Virus record (IMG/VR): IMGVR_UViG_3300045988_152944
DNA from: a virus
DNA length: 64,000 nucleotides
Strand: one strand, 5' to 3'
In this document: one piece after another, positions 3,791-64,000 of the stretch
How the letters are laid out: the number at the start of each line of letters is the position of its first letter
Position numbering within the stretch: the stretch's first letter is position 1
The notes under the pieces: model-generated
What the model was told of the DNA's origin: nothing
What the model saw: the letters and a program-made list of their open reading frames with translations, nothing else
Database searches by the model: none
Translations under genes and position numbers: made by a program

Positions 3791-3867
3791 TGGTCGGGGT
3801 GACACGATTCGAACGTGCGACCTTATGGTCCCAGGCCATACGCGCTCCCAGCTGCGCTACACCCCGA
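3791..3867 (-). tRNA. tRNA-Pro(UGG): tRNA-Pro (anticodon UGG), CCA encoded
   Basis: Manual fold: TCGGGGT acceptor, GTTCGAATC T-loop, anticodon arm TATGG-CCTGGGA-CCATA. Position 33 reads C rather than the near-universal U. Confidence 0.8.
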
Positions 3868-3886
3868 AGAAAAAGGGGCCGCCCCT
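3868..3886 (-). terminator. short GC hairpin plus T5 immediately upstream of tRNA-Pro (weak terminator or processing signal)
   Basis: Minus strand reads AGGGG-CGG-CCCCT followed by TTTTT. The stem is only 5 bp. Confidence 0.3.
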
Positions 3887-3894
3887 ACTTCTGA

Positions 3895-4089
3895 CATCCC
3901 GGATTTTGGGAGCATTTTCTGGGTAGCCCCGTTCAAAAATTTTGTAGTAGAACCGTTTCCAAACTACTACCATACTCTTGTACTTTGAGTATCTTGTTAC
4001 ACTTAACTTACCGCGAATTAGTTAGTAACCCTTGTCCTCTACGACACACACGATTTTTCTCAGTCGGGCGACACCTTGTCGTGTCGCCG
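3895..4089 (-). ncRNA. unclassified structured spacer between tRNA-Leu and tRNA-Pro
   Basis: No ORF and no tRNA fold. Three clean hairpins are present: GTAGTAG/CTACTAC (3944-3970), ATACTC/GAGTAT (3972-3992) and GGCGACAC/GTGTCGCC (4067-4088). Confidence 0.25.
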
Positions 4090-4173
4090 TGGTGCGACCA
4101 GTGAGACTCGAACTCACACATCTGTGATACCAGCTCCTAAGGCTGGCGCGTCTGCCAATTCCGCCACGGTCAC
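4090..4173 (-). tRNA. tRNA-Leu(UAG): tRNA-Leu (anticodon UAG), class II, CCA encoded
   Basis: Manual fold: GTGACCG acceptor, GGCGGAATTGGCAGACGC D arm, anticodon arm CCAGC-CTTAGGA-GCTGG, long variable arm, GTGAG-TTCGAGT-CTCAC T arm. Confidence 0.85.
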
Positions 4174-4179
4174 ATATTG

Positions 4180-4344
4180 TTATTGTTTGCGTTTCCCAAA
4201 CCACATCTCTGCTGCATTTTCAGGCAGCGGAGATGGGGTGGCTGGTGTAATATCTTCGGTATACACCATACTTGATTGTAGTGCTTCTTTAATCTCTTTG
4301 ATTTTCTTAGGGTCTGTAACAATTACAGGCTTATCGTCAATCAT
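4180..4344 (-). CDS. small hypothetical protein (54 aa) embedded in the tRNA cluster
   Basis: ATG at 4344 is preceded by CAGGAGG with a 5-nt spacer. The longer ORF-track model (to 4443) runs through a tRNA and is not credible. Confidence 0.5.
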   Translation of the reverse strand: MIDDKPVIVTDPKKIKEIKEALQSSMVYTEDITPATPSPLPENAAEMWFGKRKQ

Positions 4345-4364
4345 ACGAACCTCCTGAGTTATAG

Positions 4365-4449
4365 TGGCTACCGAGGAGGGACTTGAACCCCCAAGACTTT
4401 CGTCGCCAGAATCAAAATCTGGTGCGTCTACCAATTTCGCCACTCGGCA
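4365..4449 (-). tRNA. class II (Leu-like body, long variable arm) tRNA carrying a UUG (Gln) anticodon
   Basis: Manual fold: TGCCGAG-TG-GCG-AAATTGGTAGA-CGC-A-CCAGA-TTTTGAT-TCTGG-CGACGAAAGTCTT-GGGGG-TTCAAGT-CCCTC-CTCGGTA-G-CCA. All stems pair. The isotype is ambiguous. Confidence 0.75.
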
Positions 4450-4470
4450 TTATCTAAAATATTATTCTAT

Positions 4471-4545
4471 TGGCAGGCCCTCTAAGATTCGAACTCAGAT
4501 CTTACGGTTTTGGAGACCGATATTTTACCATTAAACTAAGAACCT
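4471..4545 (-). tRNA. tRNA-Trp(CCA): tRNA-Trp (anticodon CCA), CCA encoded
   Basis: Manual fold: AGGTTCT acceptor, anticodon loop CTCCAAA, CTGAG-TTCGAAT-CTTAG T arm. There is one T:T mismatch at pair 27-43. Confidence 0.8.
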
Positions 4546-4548
4546 ACG

Positions 4549-4625
4549 TTGCCCAGATGACGGATTTGGGACCGCTCTGTCTACTCTTGGAATAGCCGTG
4601 CTCCGAATTACACTACCACTGGGCA
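4549..4625 (-). pseudogene. degenerate tRNA-like element (possible tRNA pseudogene; anticodon-like CAA)
   Basis: A 7-bp acceptor-like stem (TGCCCAG/CTGGGCA) encloses 62 nt. The anticodon-like arm is CTAT-TCCAAGA-GTAG. There is no canonical T loop (TCCCAAAT), the D arm is poor and no CCA is encoded. Confidence 0.3.
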
Positions 4626-4989
4626 TGAATTAAAGGCTGGATCTTATTCCATTTAACTACTGCTTAACTCCGCCGAGTCTGGTGTTGGACATATCTAGAA
4701 TACCAACGTCGTAGCACCTTATATTTTAAGGGAATAGGCCACTCACCCTCATTGCGCCTCTTGCCGTACCTCGCGCTTTGGACGAATCTTTGTTCGACAG
4801 TCAGCCTCGTTTGCCCAATTAACAATGTTAGAAACAAGACAATCTAACGTAAATATCGGCTTTACCCGATTTGTGTGGTGTAGGGTAAAATCAACCACGC
4901 CCTCCAACATTTACCCAAGCAGGAGTTTTTACAGCACTTTCACTGGTGTCAGCATATCCTAGATTTTAGTGGCGGTATGCAACCACAAG
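4626..4989 (-). ncRNA. unclassified ~365-nt non-coding, hairpin-rich region inside the tRNA cluster
   Basis: No ORF of 60 aa or more and no tRNA fold. Mutually exclusive pairings are possible: TTTACCC at 4861-4867 and 4910-4916 against GGGTAAA at 4883-4889. Confidence 0.3.
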
Positions 4990-5064
4990 TGGCAGGCGTA
5001 AATAGATTTGAACTATTACTAGCAGAGTCAAAGTCTGCTGTGCTGACCATTACACTATACGCCA
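4990..5064 (-). tRNA. tRNA-Gln(UUG): tRNA-Gln (anticodon UUG), class I, CCA encoded
   Basis: Manual fold: TGGCGTA acceptor with unpaired U1:U72 and G73, anticodon arm GCAGA-CTTTGAC-TCTGC, AATAG-TTCAAAT-CTATT T arm. Confidence 0.85.
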
Positions 5065-5086: not shown

Positions 5087-6022
5087 CTACTTGTAATTAA
5101 CAACAACCAACTCTTTGATTTGCCCACGTGCATCGCCCTTACTGTTGATGTTACGACGAGCTAAAACCTCATGAACGTACAGTCCATCTGTGCTTTCATA
5201 TTTATCACGAAGAGAAGTGTCATTTTCGTCAGCCGAATTCGACAACATCGTCGCTGCACCGGTTTTACCACTTTTGATAAAAAACTCACACAGGCGGTTT
5301 TGTTCTTCGTCACCGAACCCATCTTTGTCGTAAGCGGTAAAAGAGTTTTTACCTTTGAGAGGACGGTAAGGGGGATCGAAGTAGACAAAAGAGCCTTTCT
5401 CGATGTCCCACTCTACTTCAGTGAAATCACCACGGTAAATATCCACCTTTTGAAGAATGTCCGCGCATCTCTTGAGGTTGTCAGCATCGCAAATCGTTGC
5501 TGTTTCATATTGACCAAACGGAACATTGAATTCACCCTTACTGTTGACTCTATACAAACCATTAAAACAGGTTTTGTTTAGAAAAATAAACTCAGCCGCT
5601 TTTTGGTAACAATTTGTATGGGAGAGCTCGGTGGTGTTGAACGATTGCCTTGTCAACAGGTAAACCCCTTTCTTACCATCCAAGGTCGCCTGTTCGTCGT
5701 ACTTCGTTTGAAGCGTACGTAATTCATCTATCAACCTTTGATGATTTCTCTTAAGGCACTGATACACATTAATCAGTTCAGCATTACGGTCGCAAATAAC
5801 GCCGCGACGGAACGGATAACGTTGCATCATATAAAAAAGCATTGCCCCACTGCCAACAAGTGGCTCCACATATGTTGTGTATTCCCCTGACTTCACTCTA
5901 GTGTAGAAGTCTTCGCCTGATTTAGACACCGGAAGAAGTTTATCCAATTGAGGAATGAGTTGGGTTTTACCACCTGCCCACTTCACAAAGGGGCGAGCAA
6001 AAAGTTTTTTCTGTTTAGCCAT
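5087..6022 (-). CDS. dam: DNA adenine methyltransferase (Dam-like, D12 class N6-A MTase)
   Basis: The 311-aa product has an N-terminal FVKWAGGK SAM-binding motif and a catalytic DPPY motif (YFDPPYRP). Confidence 0.9.
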   Translation of the reverse strand: MAKQKKLFARPFVKWAGGKTQLIPQLDKLLPVSKSGEDFYTRVKSGEYTTYVEPLVGSGAMLFYMMQRYPFRRGVICDRNAELINVYQCLKRNHQRLIDELRTLQTKYDEQATLDGKKGVYLLTRQSFNTTELSHTNCYQKAAEFIFLNKTCFNGLYRVNSKGEFNVPFGQYETATICDADNLKRCADILQKVDIYRGDFTEVEWDIEKGSFVYFDPPYRPLKGKNSFTAYDKDGFGDEEQNRLCEFFIKSGKTGAATMLSNSADENDTSLRDKYESTDGLYVHEVLARRNINSKGDARGQIKELVVVNYK

Positions 6023-30064: not shown

Positions 30065-30628
30065 TCACTCTATATCGCAGAGGTCATCAGCCTCTTGTTT
30101 TTGGCAGTTGTGTCTCATACGTCCTACCATAAGAAGTTCATTGAGCTCACGCAACCGTTTTTGTATTTTTTCTGCGAGTTTCTCTTGGGTATCAGAACAA
30201 CCTGAGTAATAACTTATGGGGAAATCCGTTCCGCGCTCCCAGGCGTAGTTGTTGGAAAAGACTTCAACTTTTGCACGCCTTAAAAAGTCAGGACCGTGTT
30301 TACTTCTATTGATTACCACAAGCTCAATTGCGTTGTCGTACCCTACCCATTCCCAGTATGTTCCTTTCGGGAATGTTATACAAGCATCAAGGAAATCACT
30401 GATAGTATCGAAATTAAAATATTCTTGCAACGAGCCTACTGAAACAATGTCGTCCTTATTCTCGTCCCAAAACTCTTCAACCGTATATCTTTTCCGTGTC
30501 ATTTGTACTGCGTAGTTGTGTTTAGGACAGTGCATAAAATCGCACGTTTCACAATCACACTTGGTAAAATTGATTGTCCTACCAATGTCAAATTTTTGAT
30601 TTTTTACCGGTTCAAATGCTAATTTCAT
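30065..30628 (-). CDS. hypothetical Cys-rich protein (187 aa)
   Basis: The ORF carries CDCETCDFMHCPKH. No SD lies close to the ATG; the nearest AAGGAGG is about 55 nt upstream, inside a hairpin. Confidence 0.5.
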   Translation of the reverse strand: MKLAFEPVKNQKFDIGRTINFTKCDCETCDFMHCPKHNYAVQMTRKRYTVEEFWDENKDDIVSVGSLQEYFNFDTISDFLDACITFPKGTYWEWVGYDNAIELVVINRSKHGPDFLRRAKVEVFSNNYAWERGTDFPISYYSGCSDTQEKLAEKIQKRLRELNELLMVGRMRHNCQKQEADDLCDIE

Positions 30629-30975
30629 AACGCTTTTGCCAAGGAAACCACAATCCCTTTAGGGTTGTGGAGGAATTGGCAACCTCCTTGTTTGTTTAAT
30701 ACATACACCATTGCTTTTACAGCCTCCTGTATGTTAGAGTGGTTACTCCACGACAAGGTTATTCAAAGGTTTGTCGTATGCAACATTGTTCCTACCCATC
30801 AGAACTGTTTAATCACATACCGCAGAGCGTAAGACTGGAGAGTACATCCTACGGTGCCTATATATTCTTTGATAACGTAGTGCTCGAAACACTTAGTCTG
30901 ATCAACTAGTGGACTTGATTACTCCTCAAGCCCACGCCTATTTATGGACTGGGTAGTTGACATGCAACTCCTTAC
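30629..30975 (-). ncRNA. unclassified ~347-nt highly structured non-coding region
   Basis: No ORF of 60 aa or more. Many hairpins are present, for example 30648-30670 and GGAGG/CCTCC at 30669-30687. A group-I R-like motif GATCAGACTAAGTG lies at 30890-30903, and an 8-codon mini-ORF with an AAGGAG SD lies at 30938-30963. Confidence 0.35.
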
Positions 30976-31428
30976 TCATTTTTTATATTCGTCCAACAGC
31001 TCGTCAATTTTCGCTTTCACTTCATCTGCAAATACTTTTCTAACTGTGTTGAAAACACTATATTTTTTATTTTGAGTCGTATCGAATGTAAATTTTTCTT
31101 CACAAGCTTTTAACAAATAAGCATTTTCTTTTTTAAGCCGCGTAATTTCAGCTTGCATTCTAGCGACTTCATCGCGCCGTTTCTGCATTAAATAAGTAGC
31201 AAAACCTATTGTATAATCGTCAACAGCATCGCACGTCAAGTCGTCATCTTGTTCTTCTGATGCAGGCACAACCGCTTTGTACTCCTCATTTTCACTCAAA
31301 AATTCAATTGCTTGTTGAATACATACATATGCCCTTTCTCTGGCATAATCGGTCAGCTCGTCGTCGCTATCCCAGTCAACTTTGTCTTTGATTTCTTCAA
31401 GTTTCTTAATCATTTTTTGCCTTGTCAT
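30976..31428 (-). CDS. hypothetical coiled-coil protein (150 aa)
   Basis: ATGA coupling to the upstream gene. Confidence 0.6.
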   Translation of the reverse strand: MTRQKMIKKLEEIKDKVDWDSDDELTDYARERAYVCIQQAIEFLSENEEYKAVVPASEEQDDDLTCDAVDDYTIGFATYLMQKRRDEVARMQAEITRLKKENAYLLKACEEKFTFDTTQNKKYSVFNTVRKVFADEVKAKIDELLDEYKK

Positions 31429-55736: not shown

Positions 55737-58700
55737 TTAAGAATGTCTAGTGAGATTACGCGCGGCTTGAAGTTGTCGCACAAAGTCATCCATATCAAAC
55801 CCAGGTTGAGCAACCATATGAACATCCAGATGTTCAACATTAAACGATTCGTCGGTTCCGAACCCTGTTGTGTGACTGAACTTGCCGTTGATGTCCACAA
55901 GTTGTTTAATCAGATTAGGAGCAACCTCGCCCAGTTGCCATACGTTGCGCGTAAGGTCGGCGGGAACAACTCCAGACTTCGACGGAAGAGCCGTCAAAGT
56001 ACCTTGAGGAGTAATGATGCCTTCAAGACCATATTGAGGATCGTCATTGACCAGAGAGAGGCCACCGGCGGTAGATAGAGTGCCTGTTGCGTGTGAAGAG
56101 AAGTCGTCTTGTGGGAGTTCACCTTCGCCTGCATATGTTTCATATATTGTCCCGTTAGCATCAATATAGTACACTTTTTTACTTCCAGAATCATAAATAA
56201 AACGATTGCGTCCGCCCTTAATGATGTCTGCGGCTTTATACCCCAGATCTATTTCCTTAGTTTCTAGTGGATCGAACCACAGGTTTTTAGCAGGAGAATA
56301 AAACAAATAAGAAGGACTAGTCGAGGAATAATCTTTAATAAGCGAAGAGTCCACCTTTTTATTTGTGATCACCACTTTTGAGAATTTCTGAGTCGCATTG
56401 GGATTTGCCCACCACCCATACCAACCCTTGCTGGTGGATGAAATTGCACTATTTAACGAATTCCAACTAGAAATAGCCCCAACGCCGCCCGAACTTTCAT
56501 TACTCTTTTCAAACAATTCTAGATACTCTGCCTTATCTTTATTAGACAGGTATTTATTGTTAAAGGCATCTTCAAAAGCGCTGCGATTTGTGTTAAACTG
56601 TTCAATTTCCACATTGTCCAAATTATCATATAGAGCCTTCTTGTTTGACGCCGCATCCTTGGTTCCTTTTGACTGTAACCATCCACCACCTTTGGTGTTG
56701 ATGAAATCGTCATACGCCGTTTTTAAGGCTTTTTTGGCCGCAGCCTTACGATAGCTATCTTCACTCTTATTCCATTCCTCCAGCTCTTCTTTTTGTTGTG
56801 CCTTATCGGCCGACGAAAACAAGGAAAATTGCTTGGGATCGTTTAACCGTTTGGTCCACAATTCTATCAGTTCAGTTGTGTCTGTGATATTACCCGACCA
56901 AGACTGCATAAACTTTTGAGCCTCTTCAAAGGATTTGTCGTCGACAATTTTGGTCATCCAATCTCGTTGACCTTGTAATTCATCAATCAAAGTTTGTAGT
57001 TTGTTGATTTGTTTTTCATTATCCAGTTCTTCGAGTTCTTTTTGCGCATCAGCGATTGCCGCCGTATCTGCCTCATAAACCCAACCAACACCCTCTCTCC
57101 AAACCTTCTTTTTTTCAGTTTGAGCATTTTCGAGTTTAATTTTAGCTTCAATAAGTTTATTTTCGTATTCTCGTTGCTTATTAATTTGCTCTAGGGCCGA
57201 TTTTTGTTCCTCTAATGCTGTCTGCTCTCTTTCCAAACGTTTATCAATATTGGATTGTATCGCAGCCAATACAGTATTATTCCAGCTTTCTTGAACCACC
57301 TGTCTTATATTTTCGGCTCCATTCAAATACGCCTCAACATATGCGTTTTTGTATTTATTTAATATATCGCCATAGGCGGTGATTTGTTCGTCTGAAAAGT
57401 CTTCAGAACTTAACGCCTGATACAAATCGTCTAAAGATGTATTATCCGCGCCAAACCCCATTTTTTCCATCATATCAACAAAACCCTGGCTTTCGTTAGA
57501 TACCATAGCTTTAAAAATCTGGGAACCCGAGGCGTTTCCGCCAGACCAGTCCTCAAATAGAGAACGGGTTTTATTTGCATAATACTCTTTTGTTTTATTA
57601 GCAATACTAAAGACTCCGGCTTCTGTTAATGCACCCGCCTCGTTACCATTTGCTTGAATAATTTGATATAATGAATCCAGCGACACTTTGCCAGTGGAAG
57701 CCATTTCTGAAAAATAATTTATCAATTTTTCACTTTGTTCTTGCAAATCTGAAAATGTGGAATTCAACTCACCAATTGTTAACGAACCAAATTTATCCAC
57801 ACTTTGTTTCACATCGTCCACCGAACGCCCAAGGGCATTAGCAGCCTGATCTAAGAGTTCATTAACCACATTCGTATCCAATTTATAAGTGTTGTTAACA
57901 ATATCAGATAAAGTGAATTGCCCGCCAGCTAAAAGGGATTGTATCGAGGTGGAGGTGTCTCGTTTCATCATTAGTTGAATTAATCTTCTTATTTCCGTCG
58001 TTAACGACAGTCCCGCCTTATCCGCCACTTGTTGTTCAACCCAAGAGATACCCTTGCGTGCTAATTCCATAGAACCCATTGAGGAAACACCGCTGCGTAA
58101 ATACGCTTCTTGCATCGTATAATTCAAGAGTTTTTTTCGCTCGTCTGCGGTCAATTGTTGTCCTTCTTTGGATTGTTCATAGGCGGCCTTTTGCGCTCGA
58201 ATATTGGCGATTTGCAACGCTTGTGCTAACTGTGTCCGGCTTTCGCTGGATTTGTTTTCATCTGCTAAGTAATCATCAATGTTTCTATAAAGCTCGTCTA
58301 ATGAGGCAGCGCCAAATGTTTCGCGTAATTTAACCCCATCTTCTGAAGACAAGTAACTCTTAAAAGTATCCTCAAGAACTTTGTTGTCTACCGATGCTGC
58401 TTTTATAGCTTCCACATTTTCACGAATAGCCTTCACATCATCCGAAAGTAACTTATCTTGCTTGGAAACTTCAACAACGTTTTGAAGCGCGGTTTCTTGA
58501 GCCTTTAAAGTTTCTAAGAGTTTAGACGCCTCTGCCACTCTTTTTTTACGGTTGATTTCTTCTTTGTCAAGCGCATTGGCAATAGGCTCAGCGGCAAAGC
58601 TCCCAATCGTGGAACCTATCATTGCTCCAATTGGCCCCCCAAGTGCTCCTCCAATGGCTGTTAAACCACCCGCAAAAGCACCAGCAACTACTTTAGCCTC

Positions 58701-60075
58701 TGTAGATCCTTCTGTACCAACGCCAGTTGTTATACCACTAAACAATCCCCCGAGTGCGGCTCCAGGAATATTAGATGGGACGGATTTGAAATATTTTTTT
58801 ACTTTCCCATCTTCTCCCGTCGTTTCTCCAGGAACTCCACCTGTTTTTTGCTGATTAGTATCTTGAGCAACTGCTTTGGCGTGTTTTTGAGTTTCTTTTG
58901 TATCTCGCGAAGTAGCATTTGTGTTTTTGTTTTCCTCTTTGGTTCCTTGCGCTTCGGCGGCGGCCCCTTGTGACGCACTCTCGGCAACTTGGTCTAGCGC
59001 AGAAGCTGTACCAGTTGCAGATTGAGCCAATTTGTTATTGGCCGCTGCTACAGCCTCTTCGGTCTTTTTCTTTTGTATATCTTCTAGTTTGGACGCCTTC
59101 CAATCTTGCTGATGTTGTGCAAATCTTGTGGGTCCTAATCCACTCACAAAACTCTTCCCCTTACCCACAGAGAAAAACTCTTTCATCCAAAGAGGAACTT
59201 TAAAAGCGTTGTATTGAATCAGAGCTGTCCCGACAGCTCGAATGGAGGGAAGAAGTATTTTCATTAAAACAACGGACAAATCGGTAAACAATTTAACGAG
59301 TCCCGACTGCTCCAAAGTCATAGCGAGGTTTTCCCAAGCTGATTGCAGTCTATTTGATGCGCTTTGAATGGTTTCCATATATGCGGCATACTTGCTTTCG
59401 GCCGTACCTTGTGAATGCGCCGAAACCTCTTCTAGTTCTTCCGCACGATCCATATTTTCCATCAACACAAGGAATTGCTCGCGTTGACGAACACCGGCCA
59501 TAGCTGTAGCAATCGCGTTTTTCGACACGTTGTCAAGATTAATCCACCTATCACTCAGTTCGTCAAGAACGTCGCTAAAACTTCTAAATTCTGTATTGGT
59601 CGATCGAATACTGATACCAATTTTACCCAATACTTTTTCTATATCGTTTAAATTCTCGAGATCGGTATCAGACGATGCCTCGAGATTCATTTTTGTATAA
59701 GCGCCCGCTTTTACGTTGCCGTAACGGGACATAATTGTACGCAAGGCCATACCCACACTCGACGCGTCGCGTTGGGTGGTTTCAATGATTGTTGAAGCAT
59801 AGGCTATCGTCTCGTCTAACGACACGCCCGCCAGTTGCGCTGTCGTGGCAACGTTTTGCAAAGCAGCACCAATATCTGCGGCGGACACCGCTGCTTTCAT
59901 GTCAACTGCTGTCAGTTTCGAAACCACATTAACGGCATCAGACACCTCTAATTTAAACCCTTTAATCATTGAGGTTAAATACTCAGTTGCCTGACCGGCG
60001 TCAATCATACCCAGTTTACTTAAATAAGTTGAGGCGGTAATAAGCTCTCCAGCTTGTTGTGCCTCGTAACCTTGT
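55737..60075 (-). CDS. tail tape measure protein, exon 2
   Basis: The frame is open upstream of the ORF-track ATG and reads QGYEAQQAGELITASTYLSKLGMIDAGQATEYL..., continuing the TMP core domain begun in exon 1. The exon also has Gly-zipper hydrophobic segments and long coiled coils. Confidence 0.8.
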
Positions 60076-60405
60076 CTATAATTGTGTTACTTTTGAACTT
60101 CGTTACGTTTCAAAAGATTAAGAGAATTTTTATGTCTCAAAATTTTCTTTTATTTTCATAAAAGTTCAGACTATATCTTTGGTAAATAAAAGTTTCCTTT
60201 TATTCCCATCCCCCGCTTCCATTCACTTGAATGTACATAATAGTCTTTGAACCTTCCCCTATTCGGGGCTTGGCTGCTGATTATCCAATTTATATAATTT
60301 TTTAACCATCACACTTAAGCCTATTTCATCTTTATGTTGTGGTTTATATAACTTTAGGAACTTCCAGCAATTCAAGGGATTTATAGTGACCTAGACTTTT
60401 AGTTA
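60076..60405 (-). mobile_element. ORF-less group I intron (330 nt) in the tape measure gene
   Basis: In P1, exon AGUGGCU pairs with intron GGUCACU, giving a U:G wobble at the splice site. Core elements are AATCAGCAGCCAAGCC...AAGGTTCAAAGACTATT and GATATAGTCTGA (60166-60177). P9 is CTTTTAT-GAAA-ATAAAAG. The intron ends in G (..AATTATAG), and splicing restores ..AANEWL-QGYEAQQ.. in frame. Confidence 0.85.

Positions 60406-64000
<3,595 letters not shown>

What the first reader, a model, noticed from the sequence alone, without database searches (positions are those of the whole stretch)
60076..60405. Group I intron interrupting the tape measure protein gene
**Evidence that the two ORFs are one gene**
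- The two large ORFs (60399-63935+ and 55737-60008) are halves of one TMP core domain.
- Exon 1 ends ..VQIANAANEWL, with a stop 2 codons later. The downstream frame is open from ..QGYEAQQAGELITASTYLSKLGMIDAGQ.

**Group I hallmarks in the 330-nt gap (minus strand)**
- A P1 helix pairs exon AGUGGCU with intron GGUCACU, placing a U:G wobble exactly at the proposed 5' splice site (last exon nt 60406).
- Q/R-like elements AATCAGCAGCCAAGCC and AAGGTTCAAAGACTATT are present.
- The P7 3' strand GATATAGTCTGA is present.
- A GAAA-capped P9 is present.
- The terminal nucleotide is G (60076).
- Splicing restores the frame (CT+A = Leu).

**Context**
- No homing endonuclease ORF is present.
- The best-known phage group I introns sit mainly in DNA-metabolism genes, so a TMP location stands out.
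Basis: partly seen in the sequence, partly recalled or inferred. Interest (0 to 1): 0.7.

Follow-up and report, generated by a model that had tools for sequence, protein, structure and literature searches.

The report
Group I intron in tape-measure gene

Summary
Rfam's Intron_gpI model hits window 60147-60439 (-) at 85.9 bits (gathering score 50, E 1.8e-20). The two flanking ORFs join into one TP901-type tape measure (TMP) core domain. Relatives exist with the site empty and with a homing-endonuclease gene in the intron's P9.1 loop. The window copy has no such ORF.

The 5' splice site after U60406 is well supported: P1 is 7 bp, has a U·G wobble, and covaries in other copies.

The 3' boundary is not settled.
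- Empty alleles read GAGTGGCT^TAGACAAGG, so the inserted DNA is 327 nt (60405-60079) and ends in A.
- A covarying 5-bp P10, a P9.0 pairing and alignment with sister introns that end in G all put the 3' splice site at 60079|60078. That junction gives EWLRQGY.
- All of the roughly 30 copies retrieved at this site have the A, apart from the divergent L012, which has G there.

The location is not new: group I introns in TMP genes were described in 2008 (PMC2504315). This is a typical ORF-less group I intron with an atypical 3' splice site. RT-PCR or in vitro splicing would settle it.

The parts
60406..64000 (-). TMP exon 1. The reading frame is open to the window edge. The last codons are ...GCG AAC GAG TGG CT.
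   Evidence: Relatives' gene calls end at the same residue (P0030, P0041, P0048, P0050, P0052).
60079..60405 (-). Group I intron as defined by comparison with empty alleles and by P1/P10 (327 nt). It starts UAACUAAAAG and ends CACAAUUA.
   Evidence: RF00028 at 85.9 bits. Empty sites in L008 and L013. Structure counts.
60076..60078 (-). UAG triplet of uncertain status.
55737..60075 (-). TMP exon 2, which is certain from A60075 onward (...CAA GGT TAC GAG = QGYE...), running to the stop codon.
60406..60412 (-). P1 5' strand: the last 7 exon nt, AGUGGCU. U60406 forms the U·G wobble at the 5' splice site.
   Evidence: P1 is paired in 100% of cells, with 3 pairs changed on both sides.
60385..60391 (-). 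Internal guide sequence, P1 3' strand GGUCACU.
   Evidence: L112 has exon AGUGGGU with IGS GCUCACU, a compensatory change.
60392..60396 (-). IGS 5' flank GUCUA. This is the P10 strand that pairs with UAGAC at 60078-60074.
   Evidence: The pair U60078-A60392 becomes C-G in L112 and L117.
60074..60078 (-). P10 3'-exon strand UAGAC.
   Evidence: helix 2 is paired in 100% of cells, with 3 of 5 pairs changed on both sides.
60208..60380 (-). Core helices. P3 is 60380-60373 with 60215-60208. P4 is 60369-60364 with 60280-60275. P5/P5a is 60359-60344 with 60297-60284. P6 is 60273-60252. P7 5' strand AGACUA is 60246-60241. The P7.1 hairpin is 60233-60220.
   Evidence: Rfam alignment, coordinates, pair counts.
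60168..60207 (-). P8 hairpin (60207-60181), J8/7 AAAGAUA (60180-60174) and the P7 3' strand UAGUCU (60173-60168). The G-C pair G60245-C60169 is the presumed guanosine-binding pair.
   Evidence: The G-C pair is invariant in 8 of 8 copies (columns 175/257).
60080..60166 (-). 3' peripheral region. It contains J7/9 AA (60166-60165), P9 with a GAAA loop (60164-60147), P9.1 stub GAGA...UCUC (60138-60122; this is where relatives carry the endonuclease ORF), the P9.2 hairpin (60116-60090), and the tail UU (60081-60080), which can pair with J7/9 as P9.0.

Best explanation
Window 60405-60079/60076 (minus strand) is an ORF-less group I intron of subgroup IA type. It has a P7.1 hairpin, P9.1/P9.2 extensions and no P2. 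It sits in the TP901-type core domain of a very large tail tape measure gene (over 2,620 aa) of a roughly 90-145 kb gut phage.

It belongs to a mobile intron clade. Other members carry a homing-endonuclease gene in the P9.1 loop, and that gene has been lost from this copy.

**Proposed mechanism (inferred from established group I chemistry, not tested here)**
1. The late transcript folds.
2. Exogenous guanosine bound at the P7 G-C pair attacks after U60406. That base is held in P1 (AGUGGCU/GGUCACU) by a U·G wobble.
3. The freed 5' exon then attacks the 3' splice site, and the exons are ligated to give one TMP mRNA.

**The 3' splice site is the open point**
Its product is ...NEWL-QGYE..., which lacks one conserved Arg. 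I consider this site somewhat more likely to be the one used, about 0.55, because the G-binding pair is unchanged.
- All comparative and base-pairing evidence places the original junction 3 nt upstream, at A60079|U60078. Its product is ...NEWLRQGYE.... I give this about 0.3-0.35.
For: **It is a group I intron**
- RF00028 hits at 85.9 bits against a gathering score of 50.
- Related copies score 77-83 bits in L003, L004 and L006.
- In my 80-pair model on 8 copies, 89.4% of cells are paired, against 36-48% when partners are slid. 27 pairs change on both sides, and 0 of 500 shuffles reach that number.

**The host gene is a single TMP**
- TIGR01760 and PF10145 each match as one stretch across the junction.
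- Thirteen homologs align across it.

**The site is polymorphic**
- Empty alleles: L008 and L013 read GAGTGGCTTAGACAAGG.
- Occupied alleles have a 282-aa ORF (L003, L103, L112) or a 538-aa ORF (L009, L021) in P9.1. These match DUF7487+DUF559 and the PHROG homing-endonuclease families phrog_12131 and phrog_3339.
- ORF-less copies also exist: the window, L004, L006, L101, L111 and L117.

**5' splice site**
- The U·G wobble is present in 8 of 8 copies, and P1 covaries.

**For G60076 as the site used**
- The P7 G-C pair is invariant.
- In a library-scale study of a group I intron, every alternative 3' splice site ended in G and lay within 10 nt of the normal site (PMC13521648).

**For A60079 as the junction**
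- The empty-site sequence.
- An in-register 5-bp P10, with U-A changed to C-G in L112 and L117.
- J7/9 AA can pair with UU as P9.0, and sister introns show the matching pairs GAU/AU-G and GGU/AC-G.
- MAFFT puts the sister intron's terminal G in the same column as A60079.
- The sister junction is confirmed by intron-less homologs.
- Arg is present in 19 of 19 protein hits and 66 of 66 intron-less loci.
Against: - No RNA data were available, so splicing itself is inferred.
- Neither 3' site satisfies all the usual rules. The site after G60076 has no P10 and no P9.0, and it removes an Arg found in every intron-less homolog. The site after A60079 lacks the terminal G that, to my knowledge (unchecked recollection), essentially all described group I introns have.
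- One copy, L251, has a tail variant (...CACAAAAUA|UAG) that breaks the proposed P9.0.
- Rfam's own alignment of P1/P2 falls in exon sequence and does not match my P1. This is expected of that model (see also bioRxiv 10.1101/2020.01.27.920355).
- Subgroup assignment is by eye only.
- The 66 IMG/VR loci were partly selected with a pattern that contained the Arg, so only the 19 protein hits are an unbiased sample.
Confidence: 0.93

Rival explanations
1. The intron splices at the junction defined by P10, 60079|60078, with adenosine in the terminal (omega) position. This restores exactly the intron-less sequence ...GAG UGG CUU AGA CAA GGU... (EWLRQGY). The strong P9.0 and P10 pairings would make up for poor binding of A in the guanosine pocket. 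A low yield could be enough for a protein needed in only a few copies per virion.
For: - The empty sites L008 and L013.
- P10 is paired in 100% of cells, and its first pair changes from U-A to C-G in L112 and L117.
- P9.0 covaries among sister introns.
- The terminal G of sister intron L093 aligns with A60079.
- The A is fixed in about 30 retrieved copies, spread over at least 4 intron sub-lineages and host exons down to about 45-50% identity.
- The Arg is present in every intron-less homolog examined.
- The divergent copy L012 has G at this same position (UUUG|CAGACAAGG).
Against: - The G-C pair in P7 that specifies guanosine is unchanged.
- From memory of the Tetrahymena mutagenesis literature, changing the terminal G to A blocks exon ligation unless the binding pair is also changed.
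- In the IStron library study, all alternative 3' sites ended in G (PMC13521648).
- I know of no natural group I intron with a terminal A.
- L251 breaks P9.0.
Confidence: 0.32
2. The clade carries an old G-to-A mutation at the terminal position and now uses the next G, G60076, 3 nt into the former exon. Every intron-bearing phage therefore makes a TMP with a one-residue deletion (EWL-QGY).
For: - It is the only in-frame junction that combines U at -1 with a terminal G.
- The spliced product still matches TIGR01760 and PF10145 as a single stretch.
- The guanosine-binding pair is intact.
- Nearby G residues are the ones chosen when the normal site is impaired (PMC13521648).
Against: - It removes an Arg present in 19 of 19 unbiased homologs.
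- It has no P10 or P9.0 in that register.
- It does not explain why the first P10 pair covaries (U-A to C-G) in lineages that already carry the A. Recombination of 3' tails between lineages could account for that.
Confidence: 0.55
3. The sequence is a decayed intron that no longer splices. The TMP is made as two polypeptides, or the gene is dead.
For: - The window copy has no endonuclease ORF.
- The expected terminal G is missing.
Against: - The core helices are intact and covary.
- The CM score is well above threshold.
- The same intron is kept in many large phage contigs of 85-146 kb, with both exon frames open.
- The break lies inside a conserved domain rather than between domains.
Confidence: 0.04

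Closest known systems
Group I introns TMP-IVS1, -IVS2 and -IVS3 in tape measure genes of Bacillus cereus-group prophages (Tourasse and Kolsto 2008, PMC2504315)
   Same: - Group I introns of subgroup IA inside the conserved TMP gene of siphovirus-type phages of Firmicutes-like hosts.
- Several insertion sites within one gene.
- Copies with and without complete endonuclease genes.
- P1/P10 adapted to the target site, and insertion in the most conserved stretch of the gene.
   Different: - The host phage is different: an uncultured gut phage whose TMP is only about 28% identical to Bacillus phage TMPs.
- I could not check whether the insertion site coincides with IVS1-3, because the paper's figures are not held.
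- The terminal-A anomaly seen here is not mentioned in the sections of the paper that I read.
Classical phage IA2 introns (T4 td; Staphylococcus phage Twort orf142 introns; SPO1 DNA polymerase intron)
   Same: - The same core: GUUCAA(A/C)GACUA and AAGAUAUAGUC elements and a P7.1-type insertion.
- A U·G wobble at the 5' splice site.
- An ORF placed in a peripheral loop.
- Presence/absence polymorphism consistent with homing.

The comparison with these specific introns is from memory. The core match itself is the Rfam alignment.
   Different: - No P2.
- Only one hairpin between P7 and P3'.
- The nucleotide before the P10-defined exon 2 is A rather than G.
Group I intron in Staphylococcus phage PMBT8 (MK893987, about 9.5-9.8 kb)
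   Same: 89% identity over the 70-nt P6-P7-P7.1 core, and an RF00028 hit of 92.5 bits.
   Different: - It lies in a different, unannotated gene region upstream of the major tail protein gene.
- Several introns occur in tandem there.
- The rest of the intron is not alignable by megablast.
Sister introns in IMG/VR contigs L093, L102, L105 and L107 (another structural gene, ...LQD|K/R|YDLL...)
   Same: - The same family: nearly identical P3-P7 core, the same P1 layout (exon-U | UAA..., IGS G-GUCCUGU) and the same P9.2/tail layout.
   Different: - They end in a canonical G directly before exon 2, which is confirmed by the intron-less homologs L236 and L237.
- Their endonuclease ORF, where present, lies elsewhere in the intron.
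- Their host phages use recoded stop codons.

Membership tests
Group I intron (Rfam RF00028) | Covariance-model score at or above the curated gathering score | tested here: met
   85.9 bits against 50, E 1.8e-20, full model 1-253.
Group I intron (Rfam RF00028) | Conserved core helices P3-P8, supported by compensatory changes | tested here: met
   In the 80-pair model, 89.4% of cells are paired, against 36-48% when partners are slid. 27 pairs change on both sides, and 0 of 500 shuffles reach that. P4 and the outer 2 bp of P6 never vary, so they are uninformative.
Group I intron (Rfam RF00028) | P1 helix between the 5' exon end and the internal guide sequence, with a U·G wobble at the 5' splice site | tested here: met
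   AGUGGCU with GGUCACU. The U·G is present in 8 of 8 copies, and 3 pairs change on both sides, including exon C-to-G with IGS G-to-C in L112.
Group I intron (Rfam RF00028) | Guanosine-binding G-C pair in P7 | tested here: met
   G60245-C60169 is G-C in 8 of 8 copies (columns 175/257). That this pair is the binding site is inferred by analogy with Tetrahymena G264-C311, from memory.
Group I intron (Rfam RF00028) | Terminal guanosine immediately before the 3' exon | tested here: inconclusive
   The nucleotide before the exon 2 defined by the empty site and P10 is A60079, and it is A in all of the roughly 30 copies retrieved. A G (60076) lies 3 nt downstream and gives an in-frame junction, but with one residue lost.
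Group I intron (Rfam RF00028) | P10 pairing between the IGS 5' flank and the start of the 3' exon | tested here: met
   GUCUA with UAGAC, in register with P1. It is paired in 100% of cells, and 3 of 5 pairs change on both sides. It fits only the 60079|60078 junction.
Group I intron (Rfam RF00028) | GTP-dependent self-splicing, or spliced mRNA in vivo | not testable with these tools
   No RNA data were available.
Subgroup IA2 | P7.1 and P7.2 between P7 and P3', with a typical P2 and P9 periphery | tested here: inconclusive
   One hairpin (CAUUC/GAAUG, 60233-60220) covaries in 4 of 5 pairs. No second hairpin and no P2 were found by inspection. No subgroup-specific model was available.
Mobile (homing) group I intron | Intron-encoded homing endonuclease | tested here: not met
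   No ORF longer than 38 aa in the window copy. Relatives carry a 282-aa or 538-aa ORF in P9.1 that matches PHROG homing-endonuclease families and DUF7487/DUF559. No solved-structure relative was found by sequence.
Mobile (homing) group I intron | Both intron-containing and intron-less alleles at the same site in related genomes | tested here: met
   The empty alleles are L008 (56.5% aa identity by BLASTP) and L013 (88%). Occupied alleles occur in TMP genes only about 45-50% identical to each other, with nearly identical introns and identical exon flanks.
Phage tail tape measure protein, TP901 family core (TIGR01760 / PF10145) | Profile match above the curated cut-off, continuous across the exon junction | tested here: met
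   TIGR01760 scores 114.3 bits against a cut-off of 28.8. PF10145 scores 95.3 against 33.2. Each matches as a single stretch.

The most novel reading that the evidence does not exclude
This is a natural, widespread clade of group I introns that performs exon ligation with adenosine instead of guanosine at the terminal (omega) position. The A is fixed in about 30 independent copies and at least 4 sub-lineages, while the guanosine-binding pair in P7 is unchanged. P9.0 and a covarying P10 would do the work of positioning the 3' splice site.
Probability: 0.3. Interest if true: 0.75.

Novelty: new variant of a known kind. Interest (0 to 1): 0.45.

Why it matters
**Annotation.** The two ORFs should be joined into one TMP gene of more than 2,620 aa. 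Gene callers split this gene in every relative examined. The TMP core domain appears to be a repeated target for group I introns: at least three sites in these relatives, plus the three published for Bacillus prophages.

**Ribozyme biology.** The 3' end is the interesting part, and there are two possibilities.
- An intron clade ligates exons after an A even though its guanosine pocket is standard. To my knowledge that would be a first.
- A mobile intron has spread widely even though it forces a one-residue deletion of a highly conserved Arg on every TMP it invades. That would be a clear case of a selfish element imposing a coding change on its host gene.

Both are cheap to test.

Tried and rejected
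- **Close phage relatives.** Megablast of the region against 50,697 phage records found only a 70-nt match to the core of an intron in phage PMBT8.
- **A possible family trait.** The idea came from L093 (...AAUG UAG|UAUGAC), where UAG looked like an in-frame stop. I rejected it. L093 and its relatives use TAG or TGA as sense codons, and the intron-less homologs L236 and L237 have one residue (K/R) at that position. The sister introns therefore end at the upstream G.
- **Other in-frame junctions.**
  - A 5' site after A60403 would give EWLKQGY, but it has no U·G wobble and no P1.
  - G60090 as the terminal G is out of frame.
- **Search for a G variant at position 60079.** I scanned IMG/VR and metagenome contigs. 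No copy of this intron clade with G at that position was found. One viral scan was wasted on a badly designed pattern, and one was rejected for having too few specified bases.
- **Rfam alignment of P1/P2.** It falls in exon sequence, so I did not use it.
- **First pair count.** The first pair count used one bracket type for P3 and P7, which cross each other, so those two helices were mis-paired. I repeated it with separate brackets.
- **Endonuclease structure.** A PDB sequence search with the relatives' intron ORF found nothing significant.
- **Host assignment.** It failed. The two MAG bins that carry the intron are labelled Lachnospiraceae and Bacteroidaceae.

Full report

Yes. On the minus strand, exon 1 reads ...GCG AAC GAG TGG CTT AAC TAA (ANEWLN*). 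About 330 nt downstream, the frame ...AGA CAA GGT TAC GAG... (RQGYE...) opens and runs to 55737.

Rfam's Intron_gpI model (RF00028) matches 60147-60439 (-) over its full length at 85.9 bits, against a gathering score of 50, with E 1.8e-20.
- P4' and P6 in AAUCAGCAGCCAAGCC;
- J6/7 and P7 in GGUUCAAAGACUA;
- J8/7 and P7' in AAAGAUAUAGUCU;
- a GAAA-capped P9.

No ORF longer than 38 aa lies in the interval.

**2. Are the two ORFs one gene?**

Yes. A 414-aa segment spanning the junction gives single, uninterrupted matches to two TMP profiles: TIGR01760 tape_meas_TP901 (114 bits, residues 67-384) and PF10145 (95 bits, residues 107-321). The junction is at about residue 127.

Tblastn finds TMP genes of Bacillus phages aligning in one piece across it, at about 28% identity. 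A search of predicted proteins found 60 relatives, which BLASTP sorts into three groups:
- some span the junction (P0001, P0005-7, P0009 and others);
- some end exactly at the exon 1 stop (P0030 at 98.6% identity, P0041, P0048, P0050, P0052);
- some start at the first ATG of exon 2.

This is the pattern expected if gene callers split intron-bearing alleles. The assembled TMP is longer than 2,620 aa and runs off the window.

**3. Relatives with and without the intron**

*Empty alleles.* L008 (56.5% aa identity by BLASTP) and L013 (88%) read GAG TGG CTT AGA CAA GGT.

*Occupied alleles.* They were found on many contigs from pig and human gut metagenomes and from IMG/VR. They are the window itself, L003-L007, L009/L010/L021, L098, L101, L103, L111, L112, L115, L117, L167, L238-L250 and L251.

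Several occupied alleles carry an ORF in the P9.1 loop:
- a 282-aa protein with DUF7487 and DUF559, matching PHROG homing endonuclease phrog_12131;
- a 538-aa protein that adds a Mom-like domain, matching phrog_3339.

In the window the loop is reduced to GAGA-CAUAAAAAU-UCUC, so this is an ORF-less derivative of a mobile intron.

The introns are nearly identical in TMP genes that are only about 45-50% identical to each other. The exon bases next to the junction are identical in all of them. That is the signature of homing with co-conversion.

**4. Structure**

I built a model with P1, P3-P9, P7.1, P9.2, P9.0 and P10, and counted pairs on eight copies: five of the window type, two from the diverged L112/L117 lineage, and one sister intron from another gene (L093). 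The ORF loops were removed first.

| Measure | Result |
|---|---|
| Cells that form standard pairs | 89.4% |
| Same, with 3' partners slid by 1-3 columns | 36-48% |
| Pairs changed on both sides | 27 of 80 |
| Shuffles reaching that number | 0 of 500 |

P1, P10, P5, P6a and P7.1 are paired in 100% of cells and show compensatory changes. P4 never varies, so it is uninformative.

The structure was derived partly from these sequences, so the slid-partner control is somewhat generous. The compensatory changes do not have that problem.

The intron has no P2 and only one hairpin between P7 and P3'. I call it IA-type. An IA2 assignment is not established.

**5. The 5' splice site**

Exon AGUGGCU (60412-60406) pairs with GGUCACU (60391-60385). 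U60406·G60391 is the wobble pair.

- In L112 the exon reads AGUGGGU and the guide reads GCUCACU, a C-G to G-C swap.
- In the sister introns the pair is ACAGGAU with GGUCCUGU.

**6. The 3' splice site, the one real problem**

Compared with the empty alleles, the inserted DNA is 327 nt: GAGTGGCT[TAAC...CACAATTA]TAGACAAGG.

Four observations put the junction at 60079|60078:

- **(a) P10.** The guide's 5' flank GUCUA (60396-60392) is complementary to UAGAC (60078-60074) and in register with P1. As a result, 12 contiguous nt of guide match the ligated or empty sequence AGUGGCU-UAGAC.
- **(b) P10 covariation.** The first P10 pair covaries. It is U-A in the window type and C-G in L112 and L117 (exon CAGAC, flank GUCUG).
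- **(c) P9.0.** The two bases before A60079 (UU) can pair with J7/9 AA. Sister introns show GAU with AU-G and GGU with AC-G at the same places.
- **(d) Alignment with sister introns.** MAFFT aligns the terminal G of sister intron L093 with A60079. The tails also align by eye: AACACAAAUG| against AACACAAUUA|. The sister junction (QD|K/R|YD) is confirmed by the intron-less homologs L236 and L237.

That junction yields EWLRQGY. The Arg is present in 19 of 19 protein hits spanning the site, and in 66 of 66 intron-less IMG/VR loci. The second set was partly selected for the motif.

Against this, the nucleotide before that junction is A in every copy of the clade. About 30 copies were retrieved, some of them duplicate assemblies, and none has G. 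Only the divergent, 5'-truncated L012 has G there (UUUG|CAGACAAGG).

The P7 G-C pair that should bind guanosine is unchanged. In a library-scale study of another group I intron, all alternative 3' sites ended in G and lay within 10 nt of the normal one (PMC13521648).

One copy, L251, also breaks the proposed P9.0.

My weighting is about 0.55 for G60076, about 0.3-0.35 for A60079, and the remainder for mixed use or an inactive intron. Sequence analysis alone cannot decide this.

**7. Comparison with what is known**

Group I introns in TMP genes are not new. Tourasse and Kolsto (2008, PMC2504315) described IA1 and IA2 introns at three sites in the TMP genes of Bacillus cereus-group prophages. 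They reported the same features seen here: a conserved target, adaptation of P1/P10, and loss of the endonuclease gene.

I also saw further sites in the same domain:
- a second intron in L004 at MAL|RTIM (RF00028 33.4 bits, E 6e-7);
- an unannotated intron between GP42 and GP43 of Geobacillus virus E3 (48.7 bits, E 1.6e-11).

What differs from described introns is the 3' end.

**8. Verdict**

This is a real, typical, ORF-less group I intron in a phage TMP gene. The kind and the location are both known.

The fixed A at the structurally defined terminal position is a genuine oddity and is worth a simple RT-PCR or in vitro splicing test.

Interest is 0.45. Without the 3'-end anomaly it would be about 0.25.

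Noticed in passing
window 30739-30961 (-): HEARO RNA (RF02033) at 133.4 bits, a full-length match. The flanking ORFs are only 187 aa (30065-30628) and 150 aa (30976-31428), so no IscB-sized or HNH-sized ORF lies next to it.
   Followed up: partly
window 3794-5064 (-): Cluster of five tRNA genes (Rfam tRNA, 50-64 bits).
   Followed up: no
window 55737-64000 (-): The TMP is unusually long, over 2,620 aa, and still open at the window edge. It contains an (SG)8 run in exon 1. This implies a very long tail. Related contigs are 85-146 kb.
   Followed up: partly
L004 about 5709-5996: Second group I intron in the same TMP core domain of a relative, at MAL|RTIM (RF00028 33.4 bits, E 6e-7). It has canonical ends, CCCU|UAAUAG...AAAUUG|UAGAAC. 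Several database proteins end or start at the equivalent residue (about 1285-1292).
   Followed up: partly
L002 4429-4730 (Geobacillus virus E3, KP144388, between GP42 and GP43): The annotated N-terminal and C-terminal TMP genes are separated by an unannotated group I intron (RF00028 48.7 bits, E 1.6e-11). It lies at a third site of the domain (VDL|..AVS).
   Followed up: partly
L001 2872-3469 (Staphylococcus phage PMBT8, MK893987, about 9.5-10.1 kb): Two RF00028 hits (92.5 and 61.4 bits) lie in an unannotated 1.5-kb gap upstream of the major tail protein gene. By eye there seem to be more intron-like cores nearby.
   Followed up: no
L093, L102, L105, L107 (IMG/VR): Sister introns of the same family interrupt another structural gene (...LQD|K|YDLL...). 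Their host phages have in-frame TAG (L093, L102) or TGA (L105, L107) codons at conserved positions, which suggests stop-codon reassignment.
   Followed up: partly
L003 12779-13062: A close relative of the window phage has an IS605 OrfB/TnpB-type gene (HTH_OrfB_IS605, OrfB_IS605, Cas12f1-like_TNB) immediately downstream of its TMP gene.
   Followed up: no
L251, L252 (GTDB genome contigs): Copies of the intron lie on contigs binned into MAGs labelled Lachnospiraceae and Bacteroidaceae. The host of this phage group remains unclear.
   Followed up: no
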